The notes beneath the pieces are model-generated. The model had not been told where the DNA came from. It did no database searches and saw nothing but the letters and a program-made list of their open reading frames with translations. A program made the position numbers and the translations under genes. This document shows, piece after piece, positions 9,248-21,674 of a stretch of DNA of 64,000 nucleotides. The number at the start of each line of letters is the position of its first letter. The stretch's first letter is position 1. Origin of the DNA: Thermodesulfobacteriota bacterium (lineage in GTDB: Bacteria; Desulfobacterota; Desulfobulbia; Desulfobulbales; Desulfurivibrionaceae); NCBI GenBank assembly GCA_049323635.1, contig JBMONS010000035.1, positions 2,744 to 66,743 of the forward strand, written 5' to 3'.

Positions 9248-10153
9248 ATGCCCGCAAATATGGCGGCAAACGCCAACAGGATCGACACCATGGCAATCGA
9301 TACCACGACCACCCCGGCGGATTACCGCCACCCCATCCCCATAGCCGATGGCATCTACTGGGTGGGCTTTTACGACCAGCCCTCCGGCCTGCACTGCAAC
9401 CCTTACCTGATCGTAGATCATGGCGAGGCGGTGGTGATCGACGGCGGCAGCCGCCCTGATTTCCCGGTGGTGATGATGAAGATTCTCCGCGCCGGCATCG
9501 CCCCCGCCTCGATCAGCGCCCTCATTTACCAGCACTACGATCCTGATCTCTGCGGCAGCCTGGCCAACTTCGAGGAGATCATCGACAACCCCGAACTGCG
9601 GATCATCTCCGACAGGGAGAACAACATGTTCATCCGCCACTACTCGGTTTCATCGAAGCTGGTGGCGCTGGACAGCGTGGGACATCGTTTCCGCTTCCGC
9701 TCCGGCAGGGAGCTGCGCTTCATCAACACCCCCTACGCCCATTCCGCCGGCAGCTTCGTTACCCTCGATTCCCACTCCGGGGTGCTCTTTACCAGCGATC
9801 TCTTTGGCAGCTACGGCAGCGAGTGGGAACTCTTTCTGCGTCTTGAACCGCAATGCCGGCCATGCCTCACCTTTCCCCAGTGCCCCCACGGCAAAAGCTA
9901 CTGCCCGGTGGCGGACATCGCCCGCTTCCATCGCCGGATCATGCCGGCCACCGCCGCCCTCCGCCTTGCCATGGAACGGATTGCCGCCCTGCCCTATGCG
10001 ATCCTGGCGCCGCAGCACGGCAGCGTCATCCCGGAACGGACCGACGGCGAGGCCATGCTTTCGATGCTGTGTGGACTCGACGAGGTAGGGATCGACGGGG
10101 TGCTGACCCCATTGCGGGCCGGGCGCCCACCCCTTGGCGAGACGCCGCCATGA
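9248..10153 (+). CDS. flavodiiron-protein-like metallo-beta-lactamase-fold domain protein (ODP-type putative di-iron sensor), no flavodoxin domain
   Basis: Motifs are collinear with the FDP lactamase domain: VVIDGG, QHYDPDLCGSL (versus H-x-E-x-D-H), TPYAHSAGS, LFTSDLFGS, APQHGSV. The start is uncertain (9248, 9260 or 9290). Confidence 0.7.
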   Translation: MPANMAANANRIDTMAIDTTTTPADYRHPIPIADGIYWVGFYDQPSGLHCNPYLIVDHGEAVVIDGGSRPDFPVVMMKILRAGIAPASISALIYQHYDPDLCGSLANFEEIIDNPELRIISDRENNMFIRHYSVSSKLVALDSVGHRFRFRSGRELRFINTPYAHSAGSFVTLDSHSGVLFTSDLFGSYGSEWELFLRLEPQCRPCLTFPQCPHGKSYCPVADIARFHRRIMPATAALRLAMERIAALPYAILAPQHGSVIPERTDGEAMLSMLCGLDEVGIDGVLTPLRAGRPPLGETPP

Positions 10154-11061
10154 TCAAGACCCTGCCCCATCATGCCGACTTCGACGCCGAGGCCAACCGG
10201 CTCATCACCATGCTGGAGTACCAGGCCCGCCAGACCGACAGCGAGATCAACAAAAAGCTGCTCATGGAGCTGGTGCGCGGCTATGCCGAGGCGGAACGGG
10301 AGCTTGCGGAAAAACAGCGCCAGATCGAGGAGGATCTCCGCGCCGGGGCGATGATCCAGAAGACCATGCTGCCCCAGGCGCTGCCGGTCACCGACAACTT
10401 CCGCTTCGCCTCCCGCTTCATCCCCTGCAACTTCCTGGGCGGCGACATGTTCACCATCTTCCCGGTCACCGAGGAGATTGTCGGCATCGCCATCCTCGAC
10501 GTCAGCGGCCACGGGGTGCCCGCCGCCCTAGTCACCGTGTCGGTGGCCCAGACCCTGCAGGAAACCTGGAGCAACTCCATGCCCCACTCGCCCAAGGAGG
10601 TGGTGGAGAGCCTGGAAAAGGACTATCCCTTCGAGCGGTTCGAAAAATTCTTCACCATGGTCTATCTGCTGCTCGACACCAGCTCCGGCCAGCTCCATTA
10701 CTGCAACGCCGGCCACCCGCCGCCGCTGCTGCTCCGGCAAAACGGCTCGGTGGAACCGCTGGAAATGGGCGGCGGCATCGTGGGGCTTTCCGGGATGCTG
10801 GACTTCGAGGAAGGGGAAAAACAGCTGCGGCCGGGCGACACCCTGCTGCTTCATACGGACGGCCTGATCGAACACCAGAACCTGCGGGAGGAGTTCTTTG
10901 GCCTGGATCGCCTGACCGCCCTGCTCCCCTCCCTGCGCCTTCTGGAACCGGAGCCCATGCTCGACCAGATCCTGGCCTCGGCCATGGCGTTTGGCAAGGG
11001 TTGCCCGGTGCGCGACGACATCGCCCTGCTCGCCATCCGCTCTCAGGAGGAAAAGCCATGA
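10150..11061 (+). CDS. PP2C-family (SpoIIE/RsbU-type) serine phosphatase
   Basis: ATGA overlap with the upstream stop. SpoIIE-domain motifs: GGDMFTIF, AILDVSGHGVPAAL, YCNAGHPPPLL, LLLHTDGLIE, DDIALLAI. The N-terminal 70 aa is a coiled-coil-like linker. Confidence 0.85.
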   Translation: MIKTLPHHADFDAEANRLITMLEYQARQTDSEINKKLLMELVRGYAEAERELAEKQRQIEEDLRAGAMIQKTMLPQALPVTDNFRFASRFIPCNFLGGDMFTIFPVTEEIVGIAILDVSGHGVPAALVTVSVAQTLQETWSNSMPHSPKEVVESLEKDYPFERFEKFFTMVYLLLDTSSGQLHYCNAGHPPPLLLRQNGSVEPLEMGGGIVGLSGMLDFEEGEKQLRPGDTLLLHTDGLIEHQNLREEFFGLDRLTALLPSLRLLEPEPMLDQILASAMAFGKGCPVRDDIALLAIRSQEEKP

Positions 11062-11867
11062 CCACCCAGGAGTTGCGCCGGGAGGAACGGCTGACCATCG
11101 CCTCGATCATCTTCCCCTTCCTGGGGTCGCGGAACCGCGATTTCGCCTGTTTCCAGTACCTGCCCCTGGACTTCAGCGCCCATGGGCTCCAGATCGTCAT
11201 CCCCAGATGGGTGGTGAACCGGGAGCGGTTGCTGGCCGGGGAACGGATCAACCTGCACGTGCCGTTCAAGCTCAAGGGCGACACCTACAGTCAGGGGGAG
11301 ATCGCCTGGGCACGGGAAGACGCCAGCGTGGACGGCTTCCGCTACGGCGTCCAGCTGACCAGAAAACACCTGCCCAGCTACCCGCTCTACATCTCGCTGG
11401 GACTGGACAAGGGGGTGGGGGTCGATCTGAGCGACTTCGAGACCCCGGAGCTGATGCTGGTGCAGCTGATCAAGGACGCGGCGCTCCTCAAAAAAGGGAT
11501 CCAGATCTATTTCGACCATCTGATCCCCTACTTCTCCCGGATCGCCGATTACCCGGCCGAACTCTATCCAGAACTCAAGAAGCTGCTCTTCCACGACATC
11601 GGCGAGAAGATCCGGGAAAACCACCGCCGGCTGGAGGCGCTGCACGCCCGCCTTCTCGCCGATGCCTGGAGCCACCCCGGCATCCCCAAGGACTTCGATC
11701 TGGAGGAGCTGCGCGGCTTCATGGAGTCGGAGCTTTCCACCGATCTCCTGCAGCTCGCGCTGGGATCCAGCGCCATCACCCCCTATCTCAGCGCCATCAA
11801 GGAACTGGAGAAGAAGCAGTACACCACTTACAACGCTATCGTGCTGCTCTTTGTCCGCTCACTGTGA
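11058..11867 (+). CDS. PilZ domain protein with a C-terminal helical domain of unknown function
   Basis: ATGA overlap with the phosphatase stop. RxxxR (R7-REE-R11), and DxSxxG (DFSAHG) 27 aa later, match the c-di-GMP-binding PilZ signature. The remaining ~170 aa are unassigned. Confidence 0.7.
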   Translation: MTTQELRREERLTIASIIFPFLGSRNRDFACFQYLPLDFSAHGLQIVIPRWVVNRERLLAGERINLHVPFKLKGDTYSQGEIAWAREDASVDGFRYGVQLTRKHLPSYPLYISLGLDKGVGVDLSDFETPELMLVQLIKDAALLKKGIQIYFDHLIPYFSRIADYPAELYPELKKLLFHDIGEKIRENHRRLEALHARLLADAWSHPGIPKDFDLEELRGFMESELSTDLLQLALGSSAITPYLSAIKELEKKQYTTYNAIVLLFVRSL

Positions 11868-12899
11868 GCCGCGGCCCGGAAGCCCGCCGGCCAGCCACTG
11901 GGCGGCGCTCACCCCGTCCCGCCCCAAGAGTGGGACCACCTCCTTTCCCACTCCCTGCTGCAGCCGCCAGTCGTTTTCCTTGTTGACCTGAAACCAGCTT
12001 ATGCCGGCAAGGCCCCAAAGTTGCGCCTGCTGCCGTGCCTGGGCCAGCCAGGCGGCCTTGTCGCCGCCCTCGGTGGCCGAGGCGGTTTCAAAGACCACGA
12101 TGGGGAGATCCGGGGCGAGGGCGGTCAATTCGTCCCGCAGGGGAGAGAAGATCTCCGCAAAACTCTGCCAGCGGCTCTTCCAGCCATGGGTGGCCTGGCA
12201 ACGGGTGGTTCCCCAGTTGTAGCCGTCCATGCCCAGGACATCCACGTAGCCCCGTCCGGGGAAATAGGCGGCGGCGCGGTTCCAGCCGGCACCCTTGTCG
12301 TAAAGGGGGTGGGGGATCGACTCGGCGTTGGGGCAGAAGGCCCACAGCACGTTATGGGCCCCTTCCCGACGGAAGACCCGCACCACATGCCGGAACATGG
12401 CCACATAGGCCGCCGGGCTCGCCGGGCCATACTCCTGCCGGGAGGTGCCCCAGTGGTAGCGGGCGGTATTCATCTCATGGGCAAAGCGTATGATCACCGG
12501 CCTGCCCCACTCCCTGGCCTGGCGGGCAAAAGCGGCCAGGTAGCGGTCGTAGTCGCCGCCCACGATTTGCTGGGCCGGGATCATGGTCTCCTGGCCGCCC
12601 TGGTAGTGCATCGGCTCCCAGGTGATGCAGGGCAGGGCCTGCTGCCGGGCGATGGCGTCGAGGCTGGCCACCGGGAAGTTGTCCGCGCCAGGGTCGGCGG
12701 GCCATTGCAGGAAGAAGACCACCAGACCGGGCCGGACCCCGGTTTCCTCCGCCGCCTGGTTCAGCTGGGCATCGCTGAGGGGATTGCCCTCCAGCCCCAC
12801 TCCCCACAGCATCCCCCGCGACCAGCGCGCCCCGAGCGACAGCCCGGCCAGGAGCAGCAACATCATGCCGATCCAGGGCCGGCGCGCCGACATGGCCAT
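11859..12899 (-). CDS. secreted glycoside hydrolase family 26 protein
   Basis: Signal peptide MAMSARRPWIGMMLLLLAGLSLGA. GH26 acid/base block RFAHEMNTARYHWG and nucleophile block IVVFETAS. The start at 12899 is 2 nt after the synthase stop. The 5' 231 codons of the 577-aa track ORF are an out-of-frame overlap with the GT2 gene. Confidence 0.8.
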   Translation of the reverse strand: MAMSARRPWIGMMLLLLAGLSLGARWSRGMLWGVGLEGNPLSDAQLNQAAEETGVRPGLVVFFLQWPADPGADNFPVASLDAIARQQALPCITWEPMHYQGGQETMIPAQQIVGGDYDRYLAAFARQAREWGRPVIIRFAHEMNTARYHWGTSRQEYGPASPAAYVAMFRHVVRVFRREGAHNVLWAFCPNAESIPHPLYDKGAGWNRAAAYFPGRGYVDVLGMDGYNWGTTRCQATHGWKSRWQSFAEIFSPLRDELTALAPDLPIVVFETASATEGGDKAAWLAQARQQAQLWGLAGISWFQVNKENDWRLQQGVGKEVVPLLGRDGVSAAQWLAGGLPGRGSQ

Positions 12900-12901
12900 C
12901 C

Positions 12902-14530
12902 CTACTCCTTCTCCAGCGGATGATTGAAGTAGAGCACCCAGGAGAGGATGGCGAAGTGGTAAAGGCACCACAGCGAATTGGCCAGGATGGCGAAAAGCGG
13001 CTGCCGCTCGTAGTAGAGGCGGTGCCCGCCCCACACCATGGCCGCGAAGGCGACCAGGGCCAGGAGCAACTGCGGCCAGAGGCGATACAGGGGCAGGGCG
13101 CGGCTCTGTCCCTTGGGAGTGATGCCGAAGCTGCCCCGCACCCCGAGAATCGCCAGGGCCGAGGCCTTCATGTAGACCGGAAAGCAGATGGCGTTCAGAA
13201 ACAGCCCCTGGAACATCTGCCAGGGCCGGTAGTGGCGCTGCTCCAGGGTGCCGAGAAAGACCGAGAGGGAAAGGACCAGATAGGGAGTAAAAACCAGCAG
13301 GTAGATCTCCGGATAGACAAAGAAGGAGGGAATGCCGGTAAAGAGGTAGAGGATCGGGCAGGCGGCCAGGATCAGGAAGACCCAGCCCACGAAGTAGTGG
13401 GTGCCGGAGAGGAAGTACTCCCACCATTTGGCAGCGGAGAGCCGGTGCGGATTCCGGCGCATCTCGGCAAGAATGGAACGGAAGAGCCCCACCGTGCCCA
13501 GGGCCCAGCGGAACTGCTGACGGAAGTAGCCGCCCAGGTCCTCCGGTCCCATGCCGAAGGCGCATACCTTGTTGAGATAGGCCGACTTCCATCCCTTGAT
13601 GTGGAAGCGGAGCGAGGTGGCGAAGTCCTCGGTCACCGAGCTCTCGTCGAAGCCGCCCACGTCCATGAGCGCCTCGCGCCGGAAGATGACGTTGGTGCCG
13701 CAGCAGAACATCGCCTCCTGCAGGCTCTTGCCCTCGCAGATGAACTCATAGAAGACCGCCTGCTGCAACCCCGAGGCCCTGGCCACCCGGTTGGTCTCGA
13801 AGTTGGAGTAGTACTGGGGAGTCTGCACGAAGGCCAGGCGGGGGTTCTTCTCCATCATCGCCACCAGCGGCTCGACAAAGTCCGGAAAGGGGTTCATGTC
13901 GGCGTCAAAGACGATGATGTACTTCTCCTTCTCGCTGGGCCGGGTGCCGAAATGGCCAAAGGAAAAACCCTCCACATGGCCGCCGTCGATGAAGCGCAGG
14001 AAATCGTTGATCATGCCGGCCTTGGCGCCGTGCCACCTGCGGCGGAAGAGGTTGATGCCGATGCGCTGGCACATGGCGTCGACGCTCTCCCGGTAGGCCC
14101 GCATCCGCTCCGGCGTGTCCCAGTCCAGGTCGTAGCGGGTGTCGTCCAGGAAGTAGAGGCTCTTGTTGGGGTAGGTGAGGTTGTAGAAGCAGGTGAGGGT
14201 GTTCTCCACCACCTCGATGGGCTCCTTGTAGGAGGAGACGATGATGGCCACCGGCGGGTAGTCGTCCAGCTCGGTTTCCGTGGCCAGGGGCGGCGGCGCC
14301 TGGGGCCGGTTGACCACGTGGTAGATGTTCAGGAAGTAGCCGAAACCGTGGATCAGGATGAAGAGCTCGCCAAACAGCAGCATGGAGGCCAGGATCCGCT
14401 CCTGCCACTGGAAGGGGGCGACGAAGAAGAGGGCGGTCCGCACGGAGAGATAGACGATGATCCCCAGCATGGCCAGCAGCACCAGGATGCCCAGCAATGC
14501 GGATCTGCTCCAGTTCCTTGGCTTGAACAT
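12902..14530 (-). CDS. cellulose-synthase-like family 2 glycosyltransferase (processive membrane synthase, no PilZ domain)
   Basis: 542 aa with N- and C-terminal TM helices. Motifs: VAIIVSSYKEP, DDT, HGAKAGMIN, VFDADM, FCCGTN, VTEDFATS (TED), QQFRWALG (QxxRW). Confidence 0.9.
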   Translation of the reverse strand: MFKPRNWSRSALLGILVLLAMLGIIVYLSVRTALFFVAPFQWQERILASMLLFGELFILIHGFGYFLNIYHVVNRPQAPPPLATETELDDYPPVAIIVSSYKEPIEVVENTLTCFYNLTYPNKSLYFLDDTRYDLDWDTPERMRAYRESVDAMCQRIGINLFRRRWHGAKAGMINDFLRFIDGGHVEGFSFGHFGTRPSEKEKYIIVFDADMNPFPDFVEPLVAMMEKNPRLAFVQTPQYYSNFETNRVARASGLQQAVFYEFICEGKSLQEAMFCCGTNVIFRREALMDVGGFDESSVTEDFATSLRFHIKGWKSAYLNKVCAFGMGPEDLGGYFRQQFRWALGTVGLFRSILAEMRRNPHRLSAAKWWEYFLSGTHYFVGWVFLILAACPILYLFTGIPSFFVYPEIYLLVFTPYLVLSLSVFLGTLEQRHYRPWQMFQGLFLNAICFPVYMKASALAILGVRGSFGITPKGQSRALPLYRLWPQLLLALVAFAAMVWGGHRLYYERQPLFAILANSLWCLYHFAILSWVLYFNHPLEKE

Positions 14531-14539
14531 GGCGCCTCC

Positions 14540-17401
14540 TCAAAAGCTATAGCGAAGCGTGGCCCAGAGGCCTGTGGCGTCCCACTCCTCGGAGCGGTGG
14601 ACGAGCCCCTTCAGCTCGGCCTGCCAGTGATCAGCGAACTCGTAATGCCAGCTGAGCTCGAGCCGGGCGGAGGGGTTCTCCTCGGAGTCGCTGCCCACCC
14701 CCAGGCGGAGATCGTAGTAATGCTGCTCGCCGCCGCAGAAGAACCGCCTGGCCAGATCGTGCCGCCAGTCCAGGGTGACCCCGTAGGACCAGTAATCCTC
14801 CGGAGTCCAGTAAGGGTGGAGGATGTCGCGGGTCTGCCCGGCCACGGTCCGGTAGATGTTCATCTCCTCGGTGTCGCGATGGCCGGCGTCGACGATCACC
14901 CGGAGTTGGCGCGGATGCTCGGTGAGCTGGTAGCCCAGGGCCAGGGTCTGCTGCTCGCCGCGATTGCCGTCGGTGTACTCGAGCTGCTCCGCCATGGCCT
15001 CCAGGCGCCAGCGGCGGCCGAGGTTGCCGTTGAGCCCCACCCACCGGTGATCGGCCTCCGTGCCCTGCCGCAAGGCATGGAGATTGGCGATCTCTTCAGT
15101 GCGCTTGACCCCGACTCCCACCTCCAGAAGGTCATCCAGGTTGTACCACAGCTCGGCATGACCCGCGGCAAGATCGTCCAGGCTCTCCCGCTCATACCGC
15201 TTGCCGCTTGCGCCCACCGAGCCGCGGAGCCATGGGGTGATGGGACCGGAAAGCTTGATGGCCAGCCGCTCGGAGCGGTAGGTTTCCGAAAGAGGGCCAG
15301 GCCGCTCCTCCTCCTGGCCCAGGCCGGCCTGGAGGCGAAAACGGCAGGCCAGGGGCAGCTCGGCCACCAGCTCCTCGCGGTGGCGGGAGAGGTCGGCCAG
15401 CTCGCCACGGCCCGTCTCCTTCCAGGCGCTGGCGGAAAGACCGATCGCGGGGTTACTGCGGGTCCGCTGGCGGGCAAGCCCGGAGGCCGCCATGTCGTGC
15501 AGGGGGGAGATGGCCAGCAGCCGCTGGTACTCCTCGCCCTCCTCGTCGCACAGCCCCAGGGAACAGGCAACCTGGGAGGCGTCGAAGCGGGCCTCCTGAT
15601 TGCCCGTCTGGAAGGCGAGCAGCTGGCCGTAGGTCTCCCGGGCCGCAAGCGGCCGCTGCCGCCAGACCAGCTCCTTGCCGCGGCTTTCCAGCAGGGCGCT
15701 CTTCTGGATGCGGTAACGGCCAAAAAGCCGCTCGCGCTGCAGGGCCATGTGGTGCCACTGTTCGGGCGGCAGGCTCTCCTTGCCCTGCTCCAGAGCCTGG
15801 CTGAATGCCTCGTACCGGCCAAAGATCTCCTGGCCGGCCTCCGGCGGCGCGGCAGCTGGCAGGAGGGGCATGGTCGCGCCACCCGCCAGTCCGGCCAATG
15901 CCGTGCGCAGCGCCTCGTCCACCGGCTGGCCCCACAGCTCGGCATACATCCCCTTGGCCTCCTCCAGCCGCCTGTCCCAGGCAGCCATCCGGGCCCGCTC
16001 GATCCGGGGCAGAGGGTTGCTCGGATCCAGGGACAGCAGACGCGCGTACACCACCTCGGCCTGCCCATACTCCTTGGCCCAGCTCAGGATGCGGGCGCGG
16101 GTAAGAAGCAGCTTGGGGGTGTCGGGGAAGCCTTTTTCCAGGATGTCCAGTTCGTTCAGGGCTTCGCCGTATAGGCCATCGCTGGCAAGCGCCTCGGCCA
16201 GACCCATCCGGGCCGGGAAACAGGCGGGATCCCGGGCAAGGGCCGCCCGCTGGCAGGCGATGGCGGCCTGGCGCTCGCCGTGCTCGGCATAGAGGTTGCC
16301 CCAGCGGACCAGCCGCATGGGCTGCGGGGCAAGCTCGGCCAGCAGGCGGGCCAGAAAGACCGGAGTGGTGCGTTCCTCCCAGCTGGCGTGGTAGCTGGCC
16401 TCGACACTGGCCGGTTCCATGGCCAGCGCGGTTGCCAGCGCCTCCCGCCCGGCGGCCCCTTGGCCGGCGGCCAGGCAGGCCCGTCCCAGCCCGAGAAAAA
16501 CCCGGGCCTCGTCGGGATACCTGGCCGCCACCCCCCGGAAATGGATCATCGCCGCCTCGGCCTCGCCCTGGCGCAACAGCACCTCGCCCAGCAGTAAAGC
16601 CGCCACCAGATGGCCTGGATCCTGGGCAAGCACCTTTTCCAACCAGGCACGCGCGCTCGGGTCATCGCCTTCGCCATGCTTGATCCGGGCCAGGAGCACA
16701 AGGGGATCCTGCCGCTGGGGCACCGTCAGGAGCAGCTCCCGGGCCACCCCTTCCGCCTCGGCGAATCGCTGGCTGTTGGCCAGCGCCTCGGCAAGCGCCA
16801 ATCCCGGCTCCACATTGGCCGGTTCCTTTTCCCTCCAGCCCCGGAAAAGCTTTGCGGCCGCCAGGAAGTCTCCCCACAGGTTCAGGCGATTGGCATACCG
16901 GCGCGCCAGTTCCTCCTGACCGCCGCCAACGCGCAACGCCTGCTGATAGAGGTCGCGGCATGCATCCAGATGCCCCACCTCCGCCTCCAGATCGGCAAGA
17001 TCGGCAAGCCCACCGGCCAGTTGCCCAGCGGTTTCGCCCTGGAACGAACCCGCCAGGAGCCGCCGTGCCTCGGCCATGTGCCGGCCTGCCTCCTCGGGAC
17101 GGTCCAGCCGCAGGAGCGTGCGGGCATAGGCAAGCCGGACGGCCCACACGCCGGGCCGCGCCATCACCAGCCGCTCATAGAGAGCCGCCGCCTGCCGCCG
17201 TCCCTGCGCGGTCTCGGCCAGAAGGCCGGCCAGGAGCAGCTCCGCGTCAAGATCCGAGATCCTTGCCTCGGCCGGCACAATGGTTTCCGACCTTGGCGGC
17301 ATGCCCCAGACCATGGCCCCGCCAGTCAGCAGGACAAGCGATCCCGCCGCAAGGCCAATGGAGAGACGATGTCTGGCGCAGCGCGATTGGGAGGCCATCA
17401 T
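14540..17401 (-). CDS. TPR-repeat protein fused to a C-terminal outer-membrane beta-barrel (BcsC/PgaA/PelB-like exopolysaccharide export scaffold/porin)
   Basis: 953 aa. The N-terminal ~600 aa are Ala/Leu-rich TPR-like repeats. The C-terminal ~330 aa have an alternating beta-strand pattern with aromatic girdles and end in ATLRYSF, a typical OM barrel terminus. Confidence 0.7.
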   Translation of the reverse strand: MMASQSRCARHRLSIGLAAGSLVLLTGGAMVWGMPPRSETIVPAEARISDLDAELLLAGLLAETAQGRRQAAALYERLVMARPGVWAVRLAYARTLLRLDRPEEAGRHMAEARRLLAGSFQGETAGQLAGGLADLADLEAEVGHLDACRDLYQQALRVGGGQEELARRYANRLNLWGDFLAAAKLFRGWREKEPANVEPGLALAEALANSQRFAEAEGVARELLLTVPQRQDPLVLLARIKHGEGDDPSARAWLEKVLAQDPGHLVAALLLGEVLLRQGEAEAAMIHFRGVAARYPDEARVFLGLGRACLAAGQGAAGREALATALAMEPASVEASYHASWEERTTPVFLARLLAELAPQPMRLVRWGNLYAEHGERQAAIACQRAALARDPACFPARMGLAEALASDGLYGEALNELDILEKGFPDTPKLLLTRARILSWAKEYGQAEVVYARLLSLDPSNPLPRIERARMAAWDRRLEEAKGMYAELWGQPVDEALRTALAGLAGGATMPLLPAAAPPEAGQEIFGRYEAFSQALEQGKESLPPEQWHHMALQRERLFGRYRIQKSALLESRGKELVWRQRPLAARETYGQLLAFQTGNQEARFDASQVACSLGLCDEEGEEYQRLLAISPLHDMAASGLARQRTRSNPAIGLSASAWKETGRGELADLSRHREELVAELPLACRFRLQAGLGQEEERPGPLSETYRSERLAIKLSGPITPWLRGSVGASGKRYERESLDDLAAGHAELWYNLDDLLEVGVGVKRTEEIANLHALRQGTEADHRWVGLNGNLGRRWRLEAMAEQLEYTDGNRGEQQTLALGYQLTEHPRQLRVIVDAGHRDTEEMNIYRTVAGQTRDILHPYWTPEDYWSYGVTLDWRHDLARRFFCGGEQHYYDLRLGVGSDSEENPSARLELSWHYEFADHWQAELKGLVHRSEEWDATGLWATLRYSF

Positions 17402-17404
17402 GGC

Positions 17405-18058
17405 TTACTTCCCCGGAGAACCCAGGCTGAGCTGGAGCTGACGGATAGCCTCCTCCCGCTGCCCGGCCCAAGCGAGGACCTGGGCGTACTTGCGCCGCAC
17501 CTGGACATCATCGGGCAACGCCTCCAGAATCCGCCGATATTCGCGGATGGCCGCCTCGTACTGCTTGAGCCAGCCCAGCAGCTCGGCCAGCTTGAGCCGA
17601 ACACCGTGGTCGCCCGGAACGCGGCCGAGATGGTCCAGGTAGATTGCCCTGGCCCGCTCATACTCCTTGAGACCGACCAGGATGTCCGCCATGGCGATCC
17701 TGTCCGCCTCGCCGAGCTGCTCCAGGGGGAGCTGCTCGAAAAGCCGCAAGGCCTGCTCGGATCTGCCGGCCCAGAAGAGCACCCGGGCCTTCTCCATGCG
17801 CAGGGCCGGCTCGCCGGGCCGCTCCTTGAGAAGCCGGTCATACTCGGCCAGCGCCTCGTCGTAACGCTTGGCAAAGCCGAGCAGCCTGGCCAGCTCCCAC
17901 CGGGCCTGCCAGGCCGAAATCTCGCCTCCCACGGCCACGGCGGCGGGAGGCTCCGTCGGGCCGGGCTGCGCGGCCGCTGTCCCCAACCCCATGAGTTGGC
18001 CGGCCATCAGCCCGCCAAGCACCCAGCCACGCCATCGCCACGCCATTGCCCTTGTCAT
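17405..18058 (-). CDS. periplasmic TPR repeat protein
   Basis: 217 aa. Signal-like N-terminus (GGLMAGQLMGLGTAAAQP) followed by TPR-like repeats (YDEALAEYDRLLKERPGEP...). There is an ATGA overlap with the upstream gene. Confidence 0.65.
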   Translation of the reverse strand: MTRAMAWRWRGWVLGGLMAGQLMGLGTAAAQPGPTEPPAAVAVGGEISAWQARWELARLLGFAKRYDEALAEYDRLLKERPGEPALRMEKARVLFWAGRSEQALRLFEQLPLEQLGEADRIAMADILVGLKEYERARAIYLDHLGRVPGDHGVRLKLAELLGWLKQYEAAIREYRRILEALPDDVQVRRKYAQVLAWAGQREEAIRQLQLSLGSPGK

Positions 18059-18762
18059 CGCTCATTCTCCAACAGCTTGCGATACTGCTCAATCGCCTCG
18101 TCCAGCCGGCCGGCCCACCCCAGCACCCTGGCCAGTCCGAGCCGGGCCGGCCGGTGGTCCGGCTGGCGGGCCAGCACCTGGGCAAAGAGCGCGACCGCCT
18201 CATCGTAACGCCGCTGCCACCCCAAAACCGTGGCCAGCTTGACCGACACCGACACCTCGCCGGGGGCGCTGGCCAGAGCGTTCCGGTAGCAGGTTGTTGC
18301 CTGCTCGAACCGCTGCCCGGCCACGGCCAGATCCCCCAGGCGTTGCCAAAAGGGGAAGCGGACCGCCGGATCCTCCGGCAACCGGCCGGCCAGGGCGATT
18401 CCCTTGTCCAGCTCTCCCGCCTGCGTATAGAGTCCGGCCAACTCGTCGATCAACTGGGTGTCGTGAGGATGATCGCCCAGGGCCAGTTCCAGCTCCCCCA
18501 TGGCCAAGGCCGTATTCCCCTGCCGCCGATAGGCCTCGGCCAGACGCCGCCGCGCCGTGGCGTCGATCAGGCCGGCCTCGATGGCCTGCCGGTAGAGCAG
18601 GATCGCTCCGGGAAGATCCCGATGGACGAAGGCAACCTCGGCACGGCGGAAGAGCACCATCTCCCGGTGCGCATGGTGATACCCGGCGCTGGCCGCCAGC
18701 CCCACGGCCAGCAGCAAGACGAGATACATCCCCCATTGGGCCTGCTTACCCTGCCAGTCCAT
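18055..18762 (-). CDS. membrane-anchored TPR repeat protein
   Basis: 235 aa with one N-terminal TM helix (MYLVLLLAVGLAASAGY) followed by TPR-like repeats. The start may be 18762 or 18729. With the 18762 start it overlaps the 3' end of the RsbW-like gene. Confidence 0.65.
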   Translation of the reverse strand: MDWQGKQAQWGMYLVLLLAVGLAASAGYHHAHREMVLFRRAEVAFVHRDLPGAILLYRQAIEAGLIDATARRRLAEAYRRQGNTALAMGELELALGDHPHDTQLIDELAGLYTQAGELDKGIALAGRLPEDPAVRFPFWQRLGDLAVAGQRFEQATTCYRNALASAPGEVSVSVKLATVLGWQRRYDEAVALFAQVLARQPDHRPARLGLARVLGWAGRLDEAIEQYRKLLENER

Positions 18763-19225
18763 CGCCCTGCCCGCTCTCGCCGCCCCCTCCGTGGGAAAAC
18801 CACTTCACCAGCCGTAAGACGTTCCGACCTTCCTCGCTGCTGTACTCCACGCTATCCATCACGGTATTGATGATGACCAGGCCAACCCCCCCTTCCGGCG
18901 CGGCATCCAAGCCGGCTGGCTCAACGGCCCGCCGAGGCGCATCCAAACAAAGCCCTGGCCGCCCGTGATCGGTGATCGTGATAACCAGCCGATCCGTCCC
19001 CACCGCCAGCGACACCGCCACCTCCTGTCCGGCCTGGCCCTGGTAGGCGTGCTTGACCACGTTGGTCACCGCCTCCACCACGCACAGCTCCAGCTGGAAG
19101 GCGGTCTTTTCGTCAAAGGGCAGCTGGGTGCAGATCCCCTTCACCGCCAGGCCAACCAGCGCGATATTGTGCAGGGCGCTGTCAATGGCGATGCTGGCCC
19201 TGCGCTCCGGATCCCCATGGCTCAT
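18746..19225 (-). CDS. RsbW/SpoIIAB-like anti-sigma-type serine kinase (HATPase_c_2)
   Basis: ELCVVEAVTNVVKHAY (N-box), ITDHGRP (G1), and GGVGLVIINTVMDSVEY (G2) motifs. The start at MSHGD (19225) is preceded by RBS GAGGAA, 10 nt after the STAS stop. Confidence 0.8.
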   Translation of the reverse strand: MSHGDPERRASIAIDSALHNIALVGLAVKGICTQLPFDEKTAFQLELCVVEAVTNVVKHAYQGQAGQEVAVSLAVGTDRLVITITDHGRPGLCLDAPRRAVEPAGLDAAPEGGVGLVIINTVMDSVEYSSEEGRNVLRLVKWFSHGGGGESGQGDGLAG

Positions 19226-19235
19226 CGGCGGTTCC

Positions 19236-19574
19236 TCACCCGGCAAATCCCCGCAGCGCCTCATCCAGGGAGGGAAAGATCCTGAAGATCCTGGTCATGC
19301 GGGTCAGTTCGAAAAGGCTCATCACCTTGGGCGGCACGTTGCACAGCACCAGCTCGCCATCGTTGCCCAGGGTCTTGAGCAGGGAGACCAGCACCCCCAG
19401 CCCGCTGCTGTCGATGAACTCCACGCGCTGAAAATCCAGGACGATCCTGCGGCTGCCGTTGTTGACGCAGTCCACCATGGTCCCCTTCACCAGGATGGCG
19501 TTGGAGGCGTCGATGCGCTTGCCCTGGGGAGTGGCCACCAGGATGTCCCCCTCGTTGCGGGTCGCTATGTCCAT
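19236..19574 (-). CDS. STAS-domain anti-sigma-factor antagonist-like protein
   Basis: 112 aa. RIVLDFQRVEFIDSSGLGVLVSL contains the conserved phosphorylatable Ser of the SpoIIAA/RsbV family. Confidence 0.85.
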   Translation of the reverse strand: MDIATRNEGDILVATPQGKRIDASNAILVKGTMVDCVNNGSRRIVLDFQRVEFIDSSGLGVLVSLLKTLGNDGELVLCNVPPKVMSLFELTRMTRIFRIFPSLDEALRGFAG

Positions 19575-19601: not shown

Positions 19602-21674
19602 TCAACCCCGCCGCGCCGACTCGATAAGCCCCCGCACCGCGCGGGTGAACTGGGGCAGGGGGAAGGGCTTCTGCATCATCGCCGTATTGGGCTGATCCCG
19701 GATCAACTCCTGGGAAGAGACCTCGAAAGAGTAACCGCTCATATAGAGGATCGGCAACCCAGGCGCCCGCTCCCGGATGGCCTGGCCCAGCGCCCTTCCT
19801 CCCATGCCGGGCATGATCAGATCGGTGATCAGCAGGTCGATACGACGCAGCTCCCGCTCATACACCGCCATGCCATCCTGGCCATTGGTGGCGGTCAGGA
19901 CCGAATATCCCGCCTCCTCCAGGGTTTCCCGCAGAATGTTCAACACGGTTTCATCATCCTCCACCAGCAGGACAACGCCGCTTCCCTGGTGAATATCCAC
20001 CGATGGCGCGCCCCCGCCCGCCTCCCCCGCCTGCTGCTCATTGCGGGGCAGGAAGACCGTGAAACAGCTGCCATGCCCCAGCTCCGACTCCACCACCACA
20101 TGGCCGCCATGCTGGGCCACGATGCCATGCACCGTGGCCAGCCCCAGGCCGGTGCCCTTGCCGGTCTCCTTGGTGGTGAAAAAGGGGTCGAAGATCATCC
20201 GGACCTTTTCCGGCTCAATCCCCTGCCCCTGATCGCGTACCGACAACACCACGAAATCGCCCGTCACCTCCTGGGCGTCGACATCGTACTGCGTATGGGG
20301 CGCCACGCTCCGGTTCTCGGTGGCGATGACCAATGCGCCCCCCTCCCCCATGGCGTCGCGAGCATTGACCACCAGGTTCAACAGCACCTGCTCCAGCTGG
20401 GTACGATCGGCAAGCACCGGCCACACCGTCTCTGTCAGCGCCAGGGAAAGGCTGATGTCTTCCCGGATCAGCCGGCGCAGCATCTTGGTCAACTCCCGCA
20501 CCAGCTCGTTGAGGTCAACCCGCTGGACCACCATCTCCTGCTTGCGGCAGAAGGCGAGGATGCGGCGGATCAGGTCGGCGGCCCGCTGGCCGCAATTGGC
20601 GATGGCGTCGAAGTATTGGCGGAGCGGGTGGTCCTGGTCGGTCTTTGCCTGGCCCAGGCCGCAGTAGCCGATGATCGGGGTGAGGATGTTGTTGAGGTCA
20701 TGGGCGATGCCGCCGGCCAGGGTGCCCAGGGCCTCGAGCTTCTGGCTCTGGCGGTACTGTTCCTCCAGGCGCCGCCGCTCCTCCTCGGCCTGCTTGCGGG
20801 CGGTTATGTCCCGGTCGATGCCGCGAAACCCGGCCACTTGCCCCATGGGATCCAAGACTGGCGCGCCACTGGACTCCACAAAGATCAACCGCCCCGTCTT
20901 GGTGAGGCAACGCCGCTCCACCGACTGGCAGCGGCTGGCCGAGGCCACGCAGGAGGCGAAAATCTGGCGGAAATGATCCCGCTCCCCTGGCTCGGAAAGC
21001 ACCTCGAAAAAGGTTTTCCCCAAGAGATCTTCCGGTTCATGGCCATACAACTCCCGGCACACCGGGGAACAGTAGGTTAAGCGGCCCTCGCGGTCCACCT
21101 CCCACACCCAGTCGCTGGTGGTTTCCACCAGGGCCCGGAAGCGCTGCTCCGAAGCAAGCAGCTCCTGGCGCTGTTCTTCCGCCTGGCGCGCCAACAACCA
21201 CTTGTCACTGAGCGACAGGGCAAGCTGCTTGAGCTCCTCCGGGTCGAAGGGCTTGCGGAAAAAGAGCAGGCCTGCCGATGACCCTACCGCCCGCACGATC
21301 TCTTCCCGGCTCCGGTCGGAGTATGCGGTAACAATGACCAGCTCCAGCCGCGGATCACTGGCCCGCAGCCGCACCGCGGTTTCCATGCCGTCCCAGCCGG
21401 GAGGCATCCGCACATCTACAAAGGCCAGGGCATAAGGCTCACCGCGGTCGGCGGCGGCCACTGCCATGTTAAAACCCTCCTCGCCCTGCCGGGCAAAGGA
21501 AAGAATGAACTCCGGTTCACGGTCCTCGGCGGCATCCCCCCCTAGCAGCCTGCCCATGGCCTCGGAGGCGGACCCTGTCTCCGCCTCTTCCCCCAGCACC
21601 ATGTCGTATGCCTTGAGCACGTCCGGATCGTCATCGATCACCAGTATCCGCCGCTGCGGCGTGGCTGCGGTCAT
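19602..21674 (-). CDS. hybrid sensor histidine kinase/response regulator (REC-PAS-HisKA-HATPase-REC)
   Basis: N-terminal REC (ILVIDDDPDVL, FVDVRMPPGWDG), PAS (DWVWEVDREGRLTY), H-box GGIAHDLNNILT, N/G boxes (NLVVNARDAM, DQGQGI, GTGLGLA), and C-terminal REC (VLLVEDDE, LLITDLIMPGMGG). Confidence 0.9.
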   Translation of the reverse strand: MTAATPQRRILVIDDDPDVLKAYDMVLGEEAETGSASEAMGRLLGGDAAEDREPEFILSFARQGEEGFNMAVAAADRGEPYALAFVDVRMPPGWDGMETAVRLRASDPRLELVIVTAYSDRSREEIVRAVGSSAGLLFFRKPFDPEELKQLALSLSDKWLLARQAEEQRQELLASEQRFRALVETTSDWVWEVDREGRLTYCSPVCRELYGHEPEDLLGKTFFEVLSEPGERDHFRQIFASCVASASRCQSVERRCLTKTGRLIFVESSGAPVLDPMGQVAGFRGIDRDITARKQAEEERRRLEEQYRQSQKLEALGTLAGGIAHDLNNILTPIIGYCGLGQAKTDQDHPLRQYFDAIANCGQRAADLIRRILAFCRKQEMVVQRVDLNELVRELTKMLRRLIREDISLSLALTETVWPVLADRTQLEQVLLNLVVNARDAMGEGGALVIATENRSVAPHTQYDVDAQEVTGDFVVLSVRDQGQGIEPEKVRMIFDPFFTTKETGKGTGLGLATVHGIVAQHGGHVVVESELGHGSCFTVFLPRNEQQAGEAGGGAPSVDIHQGSGVVLLVEDDETVLNILRETLEEAGYSVLTATNGQDGMAVYERELRRIDLLITDLIMPGMGGRALGQAIRERAPGLPILYMSGYSFEVSSQELIRDQPNTAMMQKPFPLPQFTRAVRGLIESARRG

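What the first reader, a model, noticed from the sequence alone, without database searches (positions are those of the whole stretch)
11859..18762. Non-canonical synthase-dependent exopolysaccharide locus (BcsA-like GT2 without PilZ, GH26, TPR-barrel, two extra TPR proteins, no BcsB-like co-polymerase)
The GT2 has the full processive-synthase motif set (DDT, HGAKAGxxN, DAD, FCCGT, TED, QxxRW) but ends after its TM helices with no PilZ domain. The associated hydrolase is GH26, a family that includes mannanases, lichenases and beta-1,3-xylanases, rather than the GH8 of cellulose operons. Export appears to use a 953-aa TPR plus beta-barrel fusion. Two additional TPR proteins, one TM-anchored and one periplasmic, sit where a BcsB/Alg44/PgaD-type partner would be expected. 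The polymer therefore need not be cellulose, and the inner-membrane co-factor is unknown.
Basis: partly seen in the sequence, partly recalled or inferred. Interest (0 to 1): 0.65.

Follow-up and report, generated by a model that had tools for sequence, protein, structure and literature searches.

The report
Uncharacterised beta-glucan secretion operon, split PilZ
This is a real, widely conserved and apparently unstudied gene cluster for making and exporting a sugar polymer (probably a beta-glucan), whose c-di-GMP sensor is a separate neighbouring protein and is paired with a phosphorylation switch.

Summary
On the minus strand, 18762 to 11859 encodes a membrane-anchored TPR protein, a periplasmic TPR protein, a 953-aa TPR plus beta-barrel protein, a 542-aa BcsA-like GT2 that ends just after its last TM helix, and a GH26 hydrolase whose true start is 12899.

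- A stand-alone PilZ protein (11058-11867, +) converges on the GH26 gene. It is co-transcribed with a PP2C phosphatase and an ODP di-iron sensor.
- A STAS protein and an RsbW-like kinase sit directly upstream of the TPR genes.

Relatives of the GT2 occur in at least 145 species of several phyla. The five core genes are nearly always together, and PilZ and STAS accompany them in 27-28 of 32 loci with full flanks.

The GT2 forms its own clade outside BcsA and BgsA but keeps every beta-glucan-synthase hallmark, including the gating loop and the Glu that BcsA pairs with its PilZ arginine. The GH26 is closest to the lichenase CtLic26A, not to mannanases.

Best reading: a new type of synthase-dependent system. 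The polymer (probably a beta-glucan, possibly mixed-linkage) and the control by a trans-acting PilZ plus a STAS switch are inferred, not shown. I found no description of it in the searchable literature.

The parts
12902..14530 (-). Processive GT2 synthase, 542 aa. It is BcsA-like, with 2 N-terminal and 4 C-terminal TM helices plus interface helices, and ends 12 residues after the last TM helix with no PilZ domain.
   Evidence: Pfam GT2 families. TIGR03030 scores 223 bits, below the 699 cut-off. RsBcsA 4hg6 matches at E 5e-35. Motifs are invariant. TM segments. It forms its own clade. E330 and the gating loop F468/T471/P472/K473 are invariant apart from E330 in one sequence (82 of 83).
11859..12899 (-). 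Periplasmic GH26 hydrolase, 346 aa, with a signal-peptide-like N-terminus. It is most like the lichenase CtLic26A.
   Evidence: Pfam GH26 41.6 bits. The C. thermocellum Endoglucanase H GH26 domain matches at E 2e-35 over the full length, while mannanases reach only about 1e-7. Identity is 34%. The catalytic residues E142 and E271 are kept in 73/77 and 72/76 orthologues.
14540..17401 (-). Outer-membrane export protein, 953 aa. A TPR superhelix (about residues 44-647) is followed by a C-terminal beta domain of 16 predicted strands (652-953) that ends in Phe.
   Evidence: AF2 gives pLDDT about 90 for the TPR part and 35-80 for the 16 strands. The only PDB hit of the C-terminal family profile is the PgaA barrel 4y25, E 0.0057. 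hhalign against E. coli PgaA gives E 9e-5, probability 59%. Terminal Phe occurs in 66 of 72 large (at least 800 aa) TPR ORFs, one of which (L059:1267-4245) is a second TPR ORF in its locus, not the barrel protein. Beta-amphipathicity is 1.34 against 0.69 +/- 0.13 in shuffles.
17405..18058 (-). Periplasmic TPR protein, 217 aa, with a signal-peptide-like N-terminus.
   Evidence: Pfam TPR families. Detected in 72 of 82 related loci (74 of 84, which counts two non-family loci that lack it); typically 37-54% identity.
18055..18762 (-). Inner-membrane-anchored TPR protein, 235 aa, with one N-terminal hydrophobic helix.
   Evidence: Pfam TPR families. Hydrophobic segment at residues 8-26. Detected in 73 of 82 related loci (75 of 84); some weaker hits may be cross-matches to the neighbouring TPR genes.
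11058..11867 (+). Cytoplasmic stand-alone PilZ protein, 269 aa. A PilZ beta-barrel (about 12-125) is followed by a helical bundle (130-268). It converges on the GH26 gene with a 9-nt overlap.
   Evidence: Pfam PilZ 29.1 bits against a cut-off of 22.5. Orthologous to the PilZ genes of the cassette in L001 and L002 (E 3e-51 and 3e-56). RxxxR and DxSxxG are mostly conserved. AF2 pLDDT 87. Foldseek finds PilZ domains, including that of BcsA. Present in 28 of 32 full-flank loci.
19236..19574 (-). Single-domain STAS protein, 112 aa, with the phosphorylatable DSSG serine (S56).
   Evidence: Pfam STAS 73 bits. Orthologous to the cassette STAS in L001. S56 is conserved in 49/50. Present in 27 of 32 full-flank loci, always together with PilZ.
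18746..19264 (-). RsbW-like serine kinase (HATPase_c_2), 172 aa; the real start may be M14 at 19225.
   Evidence: Pfam HATPase_c_2 92 bits. NCBIfam RsbW 72 bits, below the cut-off. Present in 14 of 32 full-flank loci.
10150..11061 (+). PP2C / SpoIIE-type phosphatase, 303 aa, overlapping the PilZ start codon by 4 nt.
   Evidence: Pfam SpoIIE 160 bits. Gene call. Present in 17 of 32 full-flank loci.
9290..10153 (+). ODP-family di-iron protein, 287 aa, overlapping the phosphatase start by 4 nt. It is a possible O2/iron input to the switch.
   Evidence: Pfam ODP 176 bits. Gene call. Lies near the PP2C gene (adjacent in the loci where both were placed) in 7 other related loci.
19602..23599 (-). Two sensor kinases immediately upstream on the same strand: a PAS-HisKA-HATPase-REC hybrid (19602-21674) and an sCache-HAMP kinase (21671-23599). 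They are possibly in the same transcript, and whether they belong to the system is uncertain.
   Evidence: Pfam. The gaps or overlaps to the next gene are 27 nt and 4 nt. The sCache kinase falls in no multi-locus ORF cluster; the hybrid kinase falls in a mixed kinase/phosphatase/receiver cluster, so its conservation could not be judged.

Best explanation
This is a member of an uncharacterised, widespread family of synthase-dependent exopolysaccharide secretion systems.

Shown by homology:
- An inner-membrane BcsA-like GT2 polymerises and translocates the polymer.
- Three TPR proteins are encoded beside it. The largest has a C-terminal domain distantly like the PgaA beta-barrel.
- A periplasmic GH26 is most like a beta-1,3-1,4-glucanase.

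Inferred:
- The three TPR proteins form the periplasmic path and the outer-membrane pore.
- The GH26 trims or clears the polymer, as BcsZ, PgaB, PelA and AlgL do in their systems.
- The substrate is UDP-glucose and the product a beta-glucan, most likely with mixed beta-1,3/1,4 linkages.
- Control is post-translational. The synthase is a BcsA cut off exactly where the PilZ domain would begin.
- The missing module is supplied in trans by a dedicated cytoplasmic protein made of a PilZ domain and a helical bundle. That protein binds c-di-GMP and docks on the synthase.
- Docking acts on the conserved gating loop (FxITPK) and on the conserved Glu (E330) that in BcsA pairs with the PilZ arginine.
- A STAS protein adds a second input. 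Its phosphorylation state is set by an RsbW-like kinase and a PP2C phosphatase, the latter coupled here to an ODP di-iron sensor.
- The STAS protein probably acts by binding the PilZ protein or the synthase directly, not through a sigma factor.
For: Core machinery:
- The gene order TPR-TPR-TPR/barrel-GT2-GH26 is conserved in about 80 loci. They come from Thermodesulfobacteriota, Desulfovibrionales, Chromatiaceae, Verrucomicrobiota, Riflebacteria, Oligoflexia, Brocadiaceae and Marinimicrobia.
- The genes are packed with gaps of 9 nt or less, or with overlaps.

Beta-glucan product:
- The GT2 keeps every motif reported as fully conserved in bacterial beta-glucan synthases (PMC6821405): D,D,D, QxxRW, KAG, QxPQ and FxVTxK (here FxITPK).
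- It also keeps equivalents of RsBcsA Y80/R84/E108, namely Y27/R31/E55.
- No nucleotide-sugar gene is conserved in the neighbourhood, which fits a housekeeping donor.
- The GH26 matches the lichenase CtLic26A at E 2e-35 with 34% identity. Both catalytic Glu residues are conserved. Mannanases reach only about 1e-7, and no xylanase appears at E <= 1.

Barrel.

PilZ acting in trans:
- The GT2 ends 12 residues after TM8.
- The PilZ protein is orthologous across cassettes.
- Its RxxxR and DxSxxG motifs are kept in about 80-90% of members.
- Its fold matches PilZ domains, including that of BcsA.
- The family is tiny, with 218 representatives among 1.84 billion proteins. In the 82 loci examined it is tied to this cassette: 28 of 32 full-flank loci carry it.
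- E330 aligns with RsBcsA E371, and the gating loop is essentially invariant. The mechanism for BcsA is described in PMC10374906.

STAS switch:
- PilZ and STAS co-occur in 27 of 32 full-flank loci.
- The phospho-serine is conserved in 49 of 50.
- The kinase overlaps the STAS and TPR genes, and the phosphatase overlaps the PilZ gene.
- Precedents exist for STAS switches that control polysaccharide synthesis: SypA/SypE, the Anabaena STAS-glycosyltransferase All4160, and the Bgr system that controls the mixed-linkage glucan of S. meliloti.
Against: - Nothing here is biochemical. Polymer identity rests on 34% identity to a single characterised lichenase, and GH26 specificity can shift at that distance.
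- The GT2 is no closer to the mixed-linkage synthase BgsA than to BcsA.
- The barrel part of the model has low confidence (pLDDT 35-80), and the homology signal to PgaA is weak (probability 59%).
- No GT2-PilZ fusion was found that would prove a physical partnership.
- About 10-20% of PilZ family members have degenerate binding motifs.
- Of the 32 loci with full flanks, four lack both PilZ and STAS. Among all loci, 15 that lack them carry a different small protein instead. Yet their GT2s keep E330 and the gating loop.
- The kinase and the phosphatase are each present in only about half of the loci.
- In the window the PilZ gene is on the opposite strand, not in the operon.
Confidence: 0.55

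Rival explanations
1. This is a divergent cellulose (beta-1,4-glucan) system. The GT2 makes cellulose, and the GH26 simply replaces the GH8 BcsZ as the chain-clearing endoglucanase.
For: BcsA is among the closest characterised relatives (27-33% core identity; best PDB hits). All cellulose-synthase motifs are present. According to PMC10374906, structural features of such synthases do not distinguish cellulose from mixed-linkage products.
Against: The GT2 lies outside the BcsA plus BgsA clade. There is no BcsB and no GH8. The hydrolase's nearest characterised relative is a lichenase, not a cellulase.
Confidence: 0.2
2. The partner-switching proteins act indirectly, as in S. meliloti Bgr or P. 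aeruginosa HsbA-HsbD. The STAS protein would regulate a diguanylate cyclase encoded elsewhere, and only the PilZ protein would touch the synthase.
For: Documented precedents exist in which a STAS protein controls a cyclase that feeds an exopolysaccharide synthase. One related locus (L002) has a CHASE-PAS-GGDEF gene close by.
Against: No GGDEF gene is conserved with the cassette. STAS and PilZ are often adjacent or overlapping genes, as in L001, and they co-occur almost perfectly.
Confidence: 0.2
3. The PilZ, STAS, kinase and phosphatase genes are unrelated neighbours, for example a sigma-factor or stress switch. The synthase would be constitutive or regulated only at the level of transcription.
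For: PilZ and STAS are not detected near the core genes in some loci. RsbW-like kinases normally control sigma factors. In the window the PilZ gene is on the other strand.
Against: PilZ and STAS accompany the core in 27-28 of 32 full-flank loci, across phyla and in several different arrangements. The PilZ family is very small, and every full-length orthologue detected in the 82 loci lies within 10 kb of the cassette. No sigma-factor gene lies nearby; the only one in the window is rpoD at 52-54 kb. The GT2 keeps the gating loop and the PilZ-contact Glu.
Confidence: 0.1
4. The polymer is a beta-mannan, a beta-1,3-xylan or an amino-sugar polymer, not a glucan.
For: Most characterised GH26 enzymes are mannanases, and some are beta-1,3-xylanases. 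Specificity cannot be read with certainty at 34% identity.
Against: Mannanases match about 28 orders of magnitude worse than the lichenase, and xylanases do not match at E <= 1. No GDP-mannose or UDP-xylose genes are conserved nearby. The GT2 carries the hallmark residues of beta-glucan synthases. PgaC and NfrB are more distant.
Confidence: 0.08

Closest known systems
Bacterial cellulose synthase system (BcsA-BcsB-BcsZ-BcsC)
   Same: Processive GT2 with D,D,D, QxxRW, KAG, QxPQ, a gating loop and a channel of TM helices. A periplasmic endoglucanase. A TPR plus 16-strand barrel exporter. c-di-GMP sensed by a PilZ domain.
   Different: The PilZ domain is a separate protein with an extra helical bundle. 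There is no BcsB, and the GT2 lacks the two N-terminal TM helices that contact BcsB. The hydrolase is GH26 instead of GH8. The barrel is PgaA-like rather than BcsC-like. The GT2 falls outside the BcsA clade and far below the NCBIfam cut-off.
Mixed-linkage beta-glucan system BgsBA of Sinorhizobium meliloti, with its Bgr partner-switching control
   Same: A BcsA-like GT2 without a PilZ domain. c-di-GMP dependence. A STAS / kinase / PP2C switch in the regulatory path. A mixed-linkage glucan is the product suggested here by the lichenase-like GH26.
   Different: BgsA binds c-di-GMP through its own C-terminal domain. Export uses an HlyD-type adaptor and TolC, not TPR proteins and a barrel. BgsBA is a two-gene operon (PMC13438883), so it encodes no hydrolase. 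The Bgr STAS protein acts on a cyclase. BgsA-like enzymes group with BcsA and not with this family.
PNAG system (PgaABCD)
   Same: An outer-membrane protein built from TPR repeats plus a 16-strand barrel. The only structural homologue detected for the C-terminal domain is the PgaA barrel.
   Different: The synthase is not PgaC-like (77 bits against a cut-off of 422). There is no PgaD and no deacetylase.
Alginate Alg8-Alg44 and Pel PelD-PelF
   Same: The c-di-GMP receptor is a separate polypeptide from the glycosyltransferase. TPR proteins occupy the periplasm.
   Different: Alg44 is membrane-anchored with a fusion-protein domain, and PelD is a degenerate GGDEF receptor. Here the receptor is a soluble protein made of a PilZ domain and a helical bundle. 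These comparisons rest on general knowledge and were not tested here.
STAS switches that control polysaccharide synthesis: SypA/SypE (Vibrio fischeri) and All4160/HenR (Anabaena)
   Same: A STAS domain is phosphorylated by an RsbW-type kinase and dephosphorylated by a PP2C. It controls polysaccharide production after transcription and without a sigma factor.
   Different: Those systems belong to Wzx/Wzy-type or other pathways. In Anabaena the STAS domain is fused to the glycosyltransferase. Neither involves a PilZ protein.
CtLic26A, the GH26 domain of Clostridium thermocellum Endoglucanase H
   Same: Full-length similarity (E 2e-35, 34% identity), with both catalytic glutamates and the HE(M/A)N and (F/A)E(T/F) motifs aligned.
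   Different: CtLic26A is a secreted cellulosomal biomass-degrading enzyme. Here the domain is a stand-alone periplasmic protein inside a biosynthetic operon.

Membership tests
Bcs cellulose synthase system | Catalytic subunit reaches the BcsA equivalog score (TIGR03030 at least 699 bits; NF008558 at least 992 bits) | tested here: not met
   223 and 137 bits. Separate clade in the NJ tree.
Bcs cellulose synthase system | C-terminal PilZ domain fused to the synthase | tested here: not met
   The protein ends 12 residues after the last TM helix, and Pfam finds no PilZ domain in it.
Bcs cellulose synthase system | BcsB co-polymerase encoded with the synthase | tested here: not met
   No such gene in the window, and no conserved extra gene in 82 loci. 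The rest of the genome could not be examined.
Bcs cellulose synthase system | GH8 endoglucanase BcsZ | tested here: not met
   The hydrolase is GH26.
Bacterial beta-glucan synthases of GT2 (BcsA / CrdS / BgsA group) | Fully conserved motifs D,D,D, QxxRW, KAG, QxPH/Q and FxVTxK, plus the equivalents of Y80/R84/E108 | tested here: met
   All are present and invariant in the family, with I in place of V in the gating loop. The motif list is from PMC6821405.
BgsBA mixed-linkage glucan system | GT2 in the BgsA clade, with its own C-terminal c-di-GMP-binding domain, and an HlyD-type BgsB partner | tested here: not met
   BgsA-like enzymes group with BcsA and not with this family. There is no C-terminal domain. 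No HlyD gene is present.
Pga PNAG system | PgaC-type synthase (TIGR03937 at least 422 bits), PgaD, and the PgaB deacetylase | tested here: not met
   77 bits. No PgaB- or PgaD-like genes.
Pga PNAG system | PgaA-type outer-membrane porin (TPR plus 16-strand barrel) | tested here: inconclusive
   TIGR03939 scores 36.8 bits against a cut-off of 367. The family profile finds only the PgaA barrel in the PDB, at E 0.0057. hhalign probability is 59%. AF2 predicts 16 strands at low confidence.
Nfr system (NfrB-NfrA-YbcH) | GT2 with a C-terminal c-di-GMP-binding MshEN domain, and an NfrA exporter | tested here: not met
   18% core identity to NfrB and no C-terminal domain. No similarity to NfrA.
Glycoside hydrolase family 26 | Pfam GH26 above its cut-off, and the two catalytic glutamates | tested here: met
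   41.6 bits against 20.2. E142 and E271 align with the catalytic motifs of CtLic26A and are conserved in 73/77 and 72/76 orthologues.
Glycoside hydrolase family 26 | Beta-1,3-1,4-glucanase (lichenase) specificity | not testable with these tools
   There is only sequence proximity to the one characterised lichenase of the family.
PilZ c-di-GMP receptors | PilZ fold with the RxxxR and D/NxSxxG motifs | tested here: met
   Pfam 29.1 bits against 22.5. R7 and R11, and D38, S40 and G43 are present in the window protein and in most orthologues. AF2 plus Foldseek match PilZ domains. Binding itself was not testable.
Partner-switching systems (RsbV-RsbW-RsbU type) | STAS protein with a phosphorylatable Ser, an RsbW-type kinase, and a PP2C phosphatase | tested here: met
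Partner-switching systems (RsbV-RsbW-RsbU type) | A cognate sigma factor as the output | tested here: not met
   No sigma-factor gene lies near the locus or is conserved with it; only rpoD is present, at 52059-53780.

The most novel reading that the evidence does not exclude
This is a previously undescribed class of synthase-dependent exopolysaccharide machine, widespread in anaerobic sulfate reducers, purple sulfur bacteria and Verrucomicrobia. It would make a mixed-linkage beta-glucan. Its synthase would be gated by a detachable PilZ subunit whose action is licensed by a phosphorylated or dephosphorylated STAS protein. One enzyme would then integrate c-di-GMP with a kinase/phosphatase signal, here possibly oxygen or iron sensed by an ODP protein, entirely after translation.
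Probability: 0.3. Interest if true: 0.8.

Novelty: new variant of a known kind. Interest (0 to 1): 0.62.

Why it matters
Only a handful of synthase-dependent polysaccharide systems are understood: cellulose, PNAG, alginate, Pel, and more recently Nfr and the rhizobial mixed-linkage glucan. A further conserved system would add a new architecture, with these features:
- a different hydrolase family;
- no BcsB;
- a PilZ subunit supplied in trans;
- a built-in STAS switch.

It would also give a tractable case for two open questions. The first is how a PilZ module gates a processive synthase when it is not covalently attached. The second is what single-domain STAS proteins such as SypA act on.

It would also point to an unrecognised matrix polymer in sulfate-reducing and other anaerobic communities. 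If the product is a mixed-linkage glucan, it would be a new bacterial source of a polymer of biotechnological interest.

Tried and rejected
- Foldseek with the whole 953-aa model returned only eukaryotic and other TPR proteins and said nothing about the barrel.
- The word-indexed homologue search with the 953-aa protein was swamped by unrelated TPR proteins and gave only 6 true orthologues. The alignment for structure prediction was therefore shallow.
- I looked for a Rosetta-stone fusion of the PilZ module to a GT2. The only long hit (P0367, 826 aa) has a coiled-coil N-terminus, not a GT2.
- The 114-aa ORF 19261-19605 was first taken as a STAS candidate and rejected. The real STAS gene is in another frame, at 19236-19574.
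- Pfam found no family for the helical bundle of the PilZ protein, for residues 1-206 of the originally assumed 402-aa phosphatase ORF (which spans the ODP overlap and the N-terminal third of the 303-aa protein), or for the small protein of the loci without PilZ.
- The promoter and terminator scans were no better than chance.
- NfrA showed no similarity to the barrel.
- GT2 residues that might separate loci with and without PilZ/STAS gave only 2 weak positions.
- Literature searches combining GH26, PilZ, STAS, TPR and synthase-dependent terms found no description of this cassette.
- The paper on CtLic26A specificity is not held in the library.

Full report
**1. What is at the coordinates**

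The window has about 65% G+C. According to the source name of the identical GT2 protein, it comes from a Thermodesulfobacteriota metagenome-assembled genome (P0001).

Five tightly packed genes lie on the minus strand:
- TPR235, 18055-18762
- TPR217, 17405-18058
- a 953-aa TPR protein, 14540-17401
- a 542-aa GT2, 12902-14530
- a GH26 protein, 11859-12899

The listed ORF 11859-13592 over-extends the GH26. The ATG at 12899 lies 2 nt after the GT2 stop, and an independent gene call gives the same 346-aa product. The gaps between the five genes are 9 nt or less, or they overlap.

Pfam and NCBIfam confirm TPR repeats, GT2 families and GH26. They find no PilZ domain in the GT2. Hydropathy gives one N-terminal anchor in TPR235 and seven hydrophobic segments in the GT2. 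The proteins described in section 2 have no TM helices.

**2.

Converging on the GH26 gene is a 269-aa PilZ protein (11058-11867, +; Pfam 29.1 bits against a cut-off of 22.5). Its start codon overlaps the stop of a PP2C/SpoIIE phosphatase (10150-11061). The phosphatase's own start overlaps an ODP-family di-iron protein (9290-10153).

Directly upstream of TPR235, on the same strand, are an RsbW-like kinase (18746-19264) and a single-domain STAS protein (19236-19574; Pfam 73 bits). Two sensor kinases precede them (19602-23599). The export and synthesis genes are therefore flanked by a complete partner-switching set plus a c-di-GMP receptor.

**3. Related loci**

The GT2 has more than 1,300 relatives with E <= 1e-10. 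The best 120 are 63-100% identical (63-84% apart from the source MAG's own protein), and all but four are 520-580 aa long.

In Thiocapsa rosea and Desulfovibrio inopinatus the neighbourhood reads PilZ - STAS - TPR - TPR - TPR/barrel - GT2 - GH26 as a single block. The window's PilZ protein is an orthologue of those PilZ genes over its whole length (E 3e-51 and 3e-56).

A scan of one genome per species found 145 species with a relative, and 80 loci were kept. They come from:
- Desulfobacterales, Desulfobacca, Desulfarculia, Syntrophales, Geobacter and Desulfovibrionales
- Thiocapsa
- Opitutaceae and other Verrucomicrobiota
- Riflebacteria, Oligoflexia, Brocadiaceae and Marinimicrobia

tblastn with the window proteins gave these counts over 84 loci, two of which are non-family BgsA-like loci that hold only a distant GT2 match. 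Many contigs are truncated.

| Protein | Loci with a match |
|---|---|
| TPR/barrel | 80 |
| GH26 | 77 |
| TPR235 | 75 |
| TPR217 | 74 |
| PilZ | 51 |
| STAS | 49 |
| PP2C | 38 |
| RsbW-like kinase | 28 |

Among the 32 loci with at least 9 kb upstream and 6 kb downstream, the counts were as follows.

| Protein | Loci of 32 |
|---|---|
| PilZ | 28 |
| STAS | 27 (always with PilZ) |
| PP2C | 17 |
| Kinase | 14 |

The regulatory genes occupy several different positions and orientations relative to the core. This argues for functional linkage and against inherited synteny.

All-against-all clustering of ORFs found no other conserved neighbour. In particular there is no nucleotide-sugar enzyme, no GGDEF protein, and no BcsB-, HlyD- or PgaB-like gene. 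Fifteen loci that lack PilZ and STAS nearby have a small 78-85-aa helical protein after the GH26. It matches no Pfam family.

**4. The synthase**

The best structural relatives are the BcsA enzymes of Rhodobacter and E. coli (E 5e-35 and 3e-30). The score on the BcsA equivalog model is 223 bits against a cut-off of 699.

Core identities to the window GT2 are as follows.

| Reference enzyme | Core identity |
|---|---|
| BcsA (three references) | 27-33% |
| BgsA-like enzymes encoded next to HlyD genes | 28-29% |
| PgaC | 23% |
| NfrB | 18% |

In a neighbour-joining tree the family forms its own clade. BcsA and the BgsA-like enzymes group together to its exclusion with bootstrap 100.

The enzyme keeps everything reported as fully conserved in bacterial beta-glucan synthases (PMC6821405):
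- D,D,D and QxxRW
- KAG
- QxPQ (here QTPQ)
- the FxVTxK gating loop (here FGITPK)
- the counterparts of RsBcsA Y80/R84/E108, namely Y27/R31/E55

That correspondence shows its two N-terminal TM helices are BcsA TM3-4. The enzyme therefore lacks the first two helices. According to PMC10374906, BcsA's N-terminal TM helix coils with BcsB and is also missing in BcsB-independent synthases.

The chain ends 12 residues after TM8, which is where the PilZ domain of BcsA begins. E330, in the nearly invariant GPEDLG motif, aligns with RsBcsA E371. In BcsA that residue forms a salt bridge with the PilZ arginine and holds the gating loop shut (PMC10374906). The gating-loop residues F468/T471/P472/K473 are invariant in the 83 family sequences aligned, and E330 is kept in 82 of them.

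**5. The PilZ protein**

The alignment comprises 53 sequences: the window protein and 52 homologues. Counts of the binding-motif residues are as follows.

| Residue | Conserved |
|---|---|
| R7 | 41 of 46 non-gap |
| R11 | 43 of 47 non-gap |
| D38 | 45 of 53 |
| S40 | 42 of 53 |
| G43 | 45 of 53 |

AlphaFold2 (pLDDT 87) gives a beta-barrel at about residues 12-125, followed by a helical bundle at 130-268. Foldseek matches the barrel to PilZ domains of PP4397, RsBcsA, E. coli BcsA, VCA0042 and YcgR. The bundle has no match.

A profile search of 1.84 billion representative proteins found only 218 members at E <= 0.001. None is fused to a GT2.

**6. The STAS switch**

The DSSG motif carries the serine that is phosphorylated in RsbV/SpoIIAA-type proteins (general knowledge). 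It is conserved in 49 of 50 orthologues. No sigma-factor gene lies nearby or is conserved with the cassette; the only one in the window is rpoD at 52-54 kb.

Precedents exist for STAS switches that control polysaccharide synthesis without a sigma factor:
- SypA/SypE in Vibrio fischeri (PMC11112999)
- the STAS-domain glycosyltransferase All4160 with HenR in Anabaena (PMC13555669)
- the Bgr system, which controls the cyclase feeding the mixed-linkage glucan synthase of S. meliloti

**7. The hydrolase**

Against all PDB sequences, the GH26 protein matches the GH26 domain of Clostridium thermocellum Endoglucanase H over its full length, at E 2e-35 and 34% identity. That domain is the lichenase CtLic26A (entries 2bv9, 2cip, 2vi0).

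Mannanases reach only about 1e-7 over a 100-residue stretch. No beta-1,3-xylanase appears at E <= 1.

The acid/base motif HEMN (E142) and the nucleophile motif FET (E271) align with those of CtLic26A. They are conserved in 73/77 and 72/76 orthologues.

GH26 is known to contain mannanases, beta-1,3-xylanases and this one lichenase (PMC10470212). A 2026 paper states that no Wzx/Wzy-dependent gene cluster involving a GH26 enzyme had been characterised (PMC13390465).

**8. The exporter**

AlphaFold2 with a shallow alignment (6 sequences) gives a confident TPR superhelix at residues 44-647, with pLDDT about 90. It then gives 16 beta strands at 652-953, with pLDDT 35-80.

Further evidence on the C-terminal domain:
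- A profile of the C-terminal 320 residues of 32 orthologues finds a single PDB entry, the PgaA barrel 4y25, at E 0.0057.
- hhalign against E. coli PgaA gives E 9e-5 and probability 59%.
- NfrA does not match.
- 66 of 72 large TPR ORFs (at least 800 aa) end in Phe, the usual outer-membrane signal.
- The predicted strands have an alternating hydrophobic pattern far above shuffled controls: 1.34 against 0.69 +/- 0.13, with 0 of 1000 shuffles reaching it.

The barrel is likely but not proven.

**9. How it most likely works**

Shown:
- the gene content and its conservation
- the homologies and the conserved catalytic and binding motifs

Inferred:
- The GT2 polymerises glucose from UDP-glucose and threads the chain through its own channel without a BcsB.
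- The anchored TPR235, the soluble TPR217 and the long TPR arm of the 953-aa protein guide the chain to a PgaA-like pore.
- The GH26 cuts stalled or excess chains in the periplasm.
- The cytoplasmic PilZ protein is the detached regulatory domain of the synthase. It opens the gating loop when it binds c-di-GMP.
- The STAS protein binds the PilZ protein or the synthase, depending on its phosphorylation. In this organism that phosphorylation is linked to an ODP sensor and to two sensor kinases.

The mixed-linkage product is the least secure step. It depends on one characterised relative at 34% identity.

**10. Comparison and novelty**

The system works like the cellulose, PNAG, alginate and Pel machines. 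It fails the defining tests for membership of Bcs, Bgs, Pga and Nfr (see the membership table).

It is a new variant of a known kind: a synthase-dependent system with a novel set of parts. No description was found in 8 million open papers and preprints. Subscription literature could not be searched.

**11. Verdict**

The locus is more complete and more interesting than described, because the missing PilZ is there as a separate, dedicated protein coupled to a STAS switch. Interest is moderate to high. Everything beyond homology still needs experiments.

Noticed in passing
window 9290-10153 (+), with 10150-11061 and 11058-11867: An ODP-family di-iron protein, a family I recall (not checked here) as O2/iron sensors, is translationally coupled to the PP2C phosphatase and the PilZ gene. 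The same protein lies near the PP2C gene in 7 other related loci. This suggests oxygen or iron as an input to polymer production in these anaerobes.
   Followed up: partly
L021:11520-11777, L035:12647-12904, L054:12663-12899 and 12 other loci: Fifteen related loci with no PilZ or STAS gene within reach carry a conserved 78-85-aa helical protein directly after the GH26 gene. It matches no Pfam family. It may be an alternative regulator or subunit.
   Followed up: partly
protein P0367 (826 aa), from the representative library: This is the only long member of the PilZ-helical-bundle family. It has a 560-residue coiled-coil-like N-terminus rich in E, A and R, instead of being a stand-alone protein. 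Its context is unknown.
   Followed up: partly
window 8643-9170 (+) and 6493-8646 (+): A GDSL/SGNH hydrolase and a GlgX-like isoamylase (CBM48 plus alpha-amylase domain) lie just upstream of the ODP gene. Neither is conserved with the cassette. SGNH proteins can be polysaccharide acetyl-esterases or acetyltransferases, so a local modification role is possible.
   Followed up: partly
window 12920-16174 (+), 16610-18208 (+), 10134-11867 (+): Very long ORFs antisense to, or out of frame with, the real genes (up to 1084 aa) are artefacts of the high G+C content. Such shadow ORFs also formed apparently conserved clusters in the ORF clustering (for example clusters 7, 9, 10 and 11).
   Followed up: yes
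window 18746-19264 and 19236-19574 (-): The kinase ORF overlaps the STAS gene by 29 nt and the TPR235 start by 17 nt. Internal ATGs (M14 of the kinase at 19225, M12 of TPR235 at 18729) would remove both overlaps, so the annotated starts may be too early.
   Followed up: no
window 1015-2454 (+), 27852-28706 (-), 31031-32776 (+), 33844-37706 (+): Other genes in the window: selenocysteine synthase SelA, an HDOD-domain protein, a Schlafen/AlbA_2 ATPase-like protein, and a GldG-like ABC auxiliary protein followed by a DUF4340 protein. From 38 to 58 kb lie Mrp antiporter subunits, topA, dprA, rpoD and dnaG. There are no further polysaccharide genes.
   Followed up: partly
window 2451-4583 (+): A further 710-aa TPR protein lies 7 kb from the locus and grouped with the cassette's TPR proteins in the ORF clustering. 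This probably reflects repeat similarity only.
   Followed up: no
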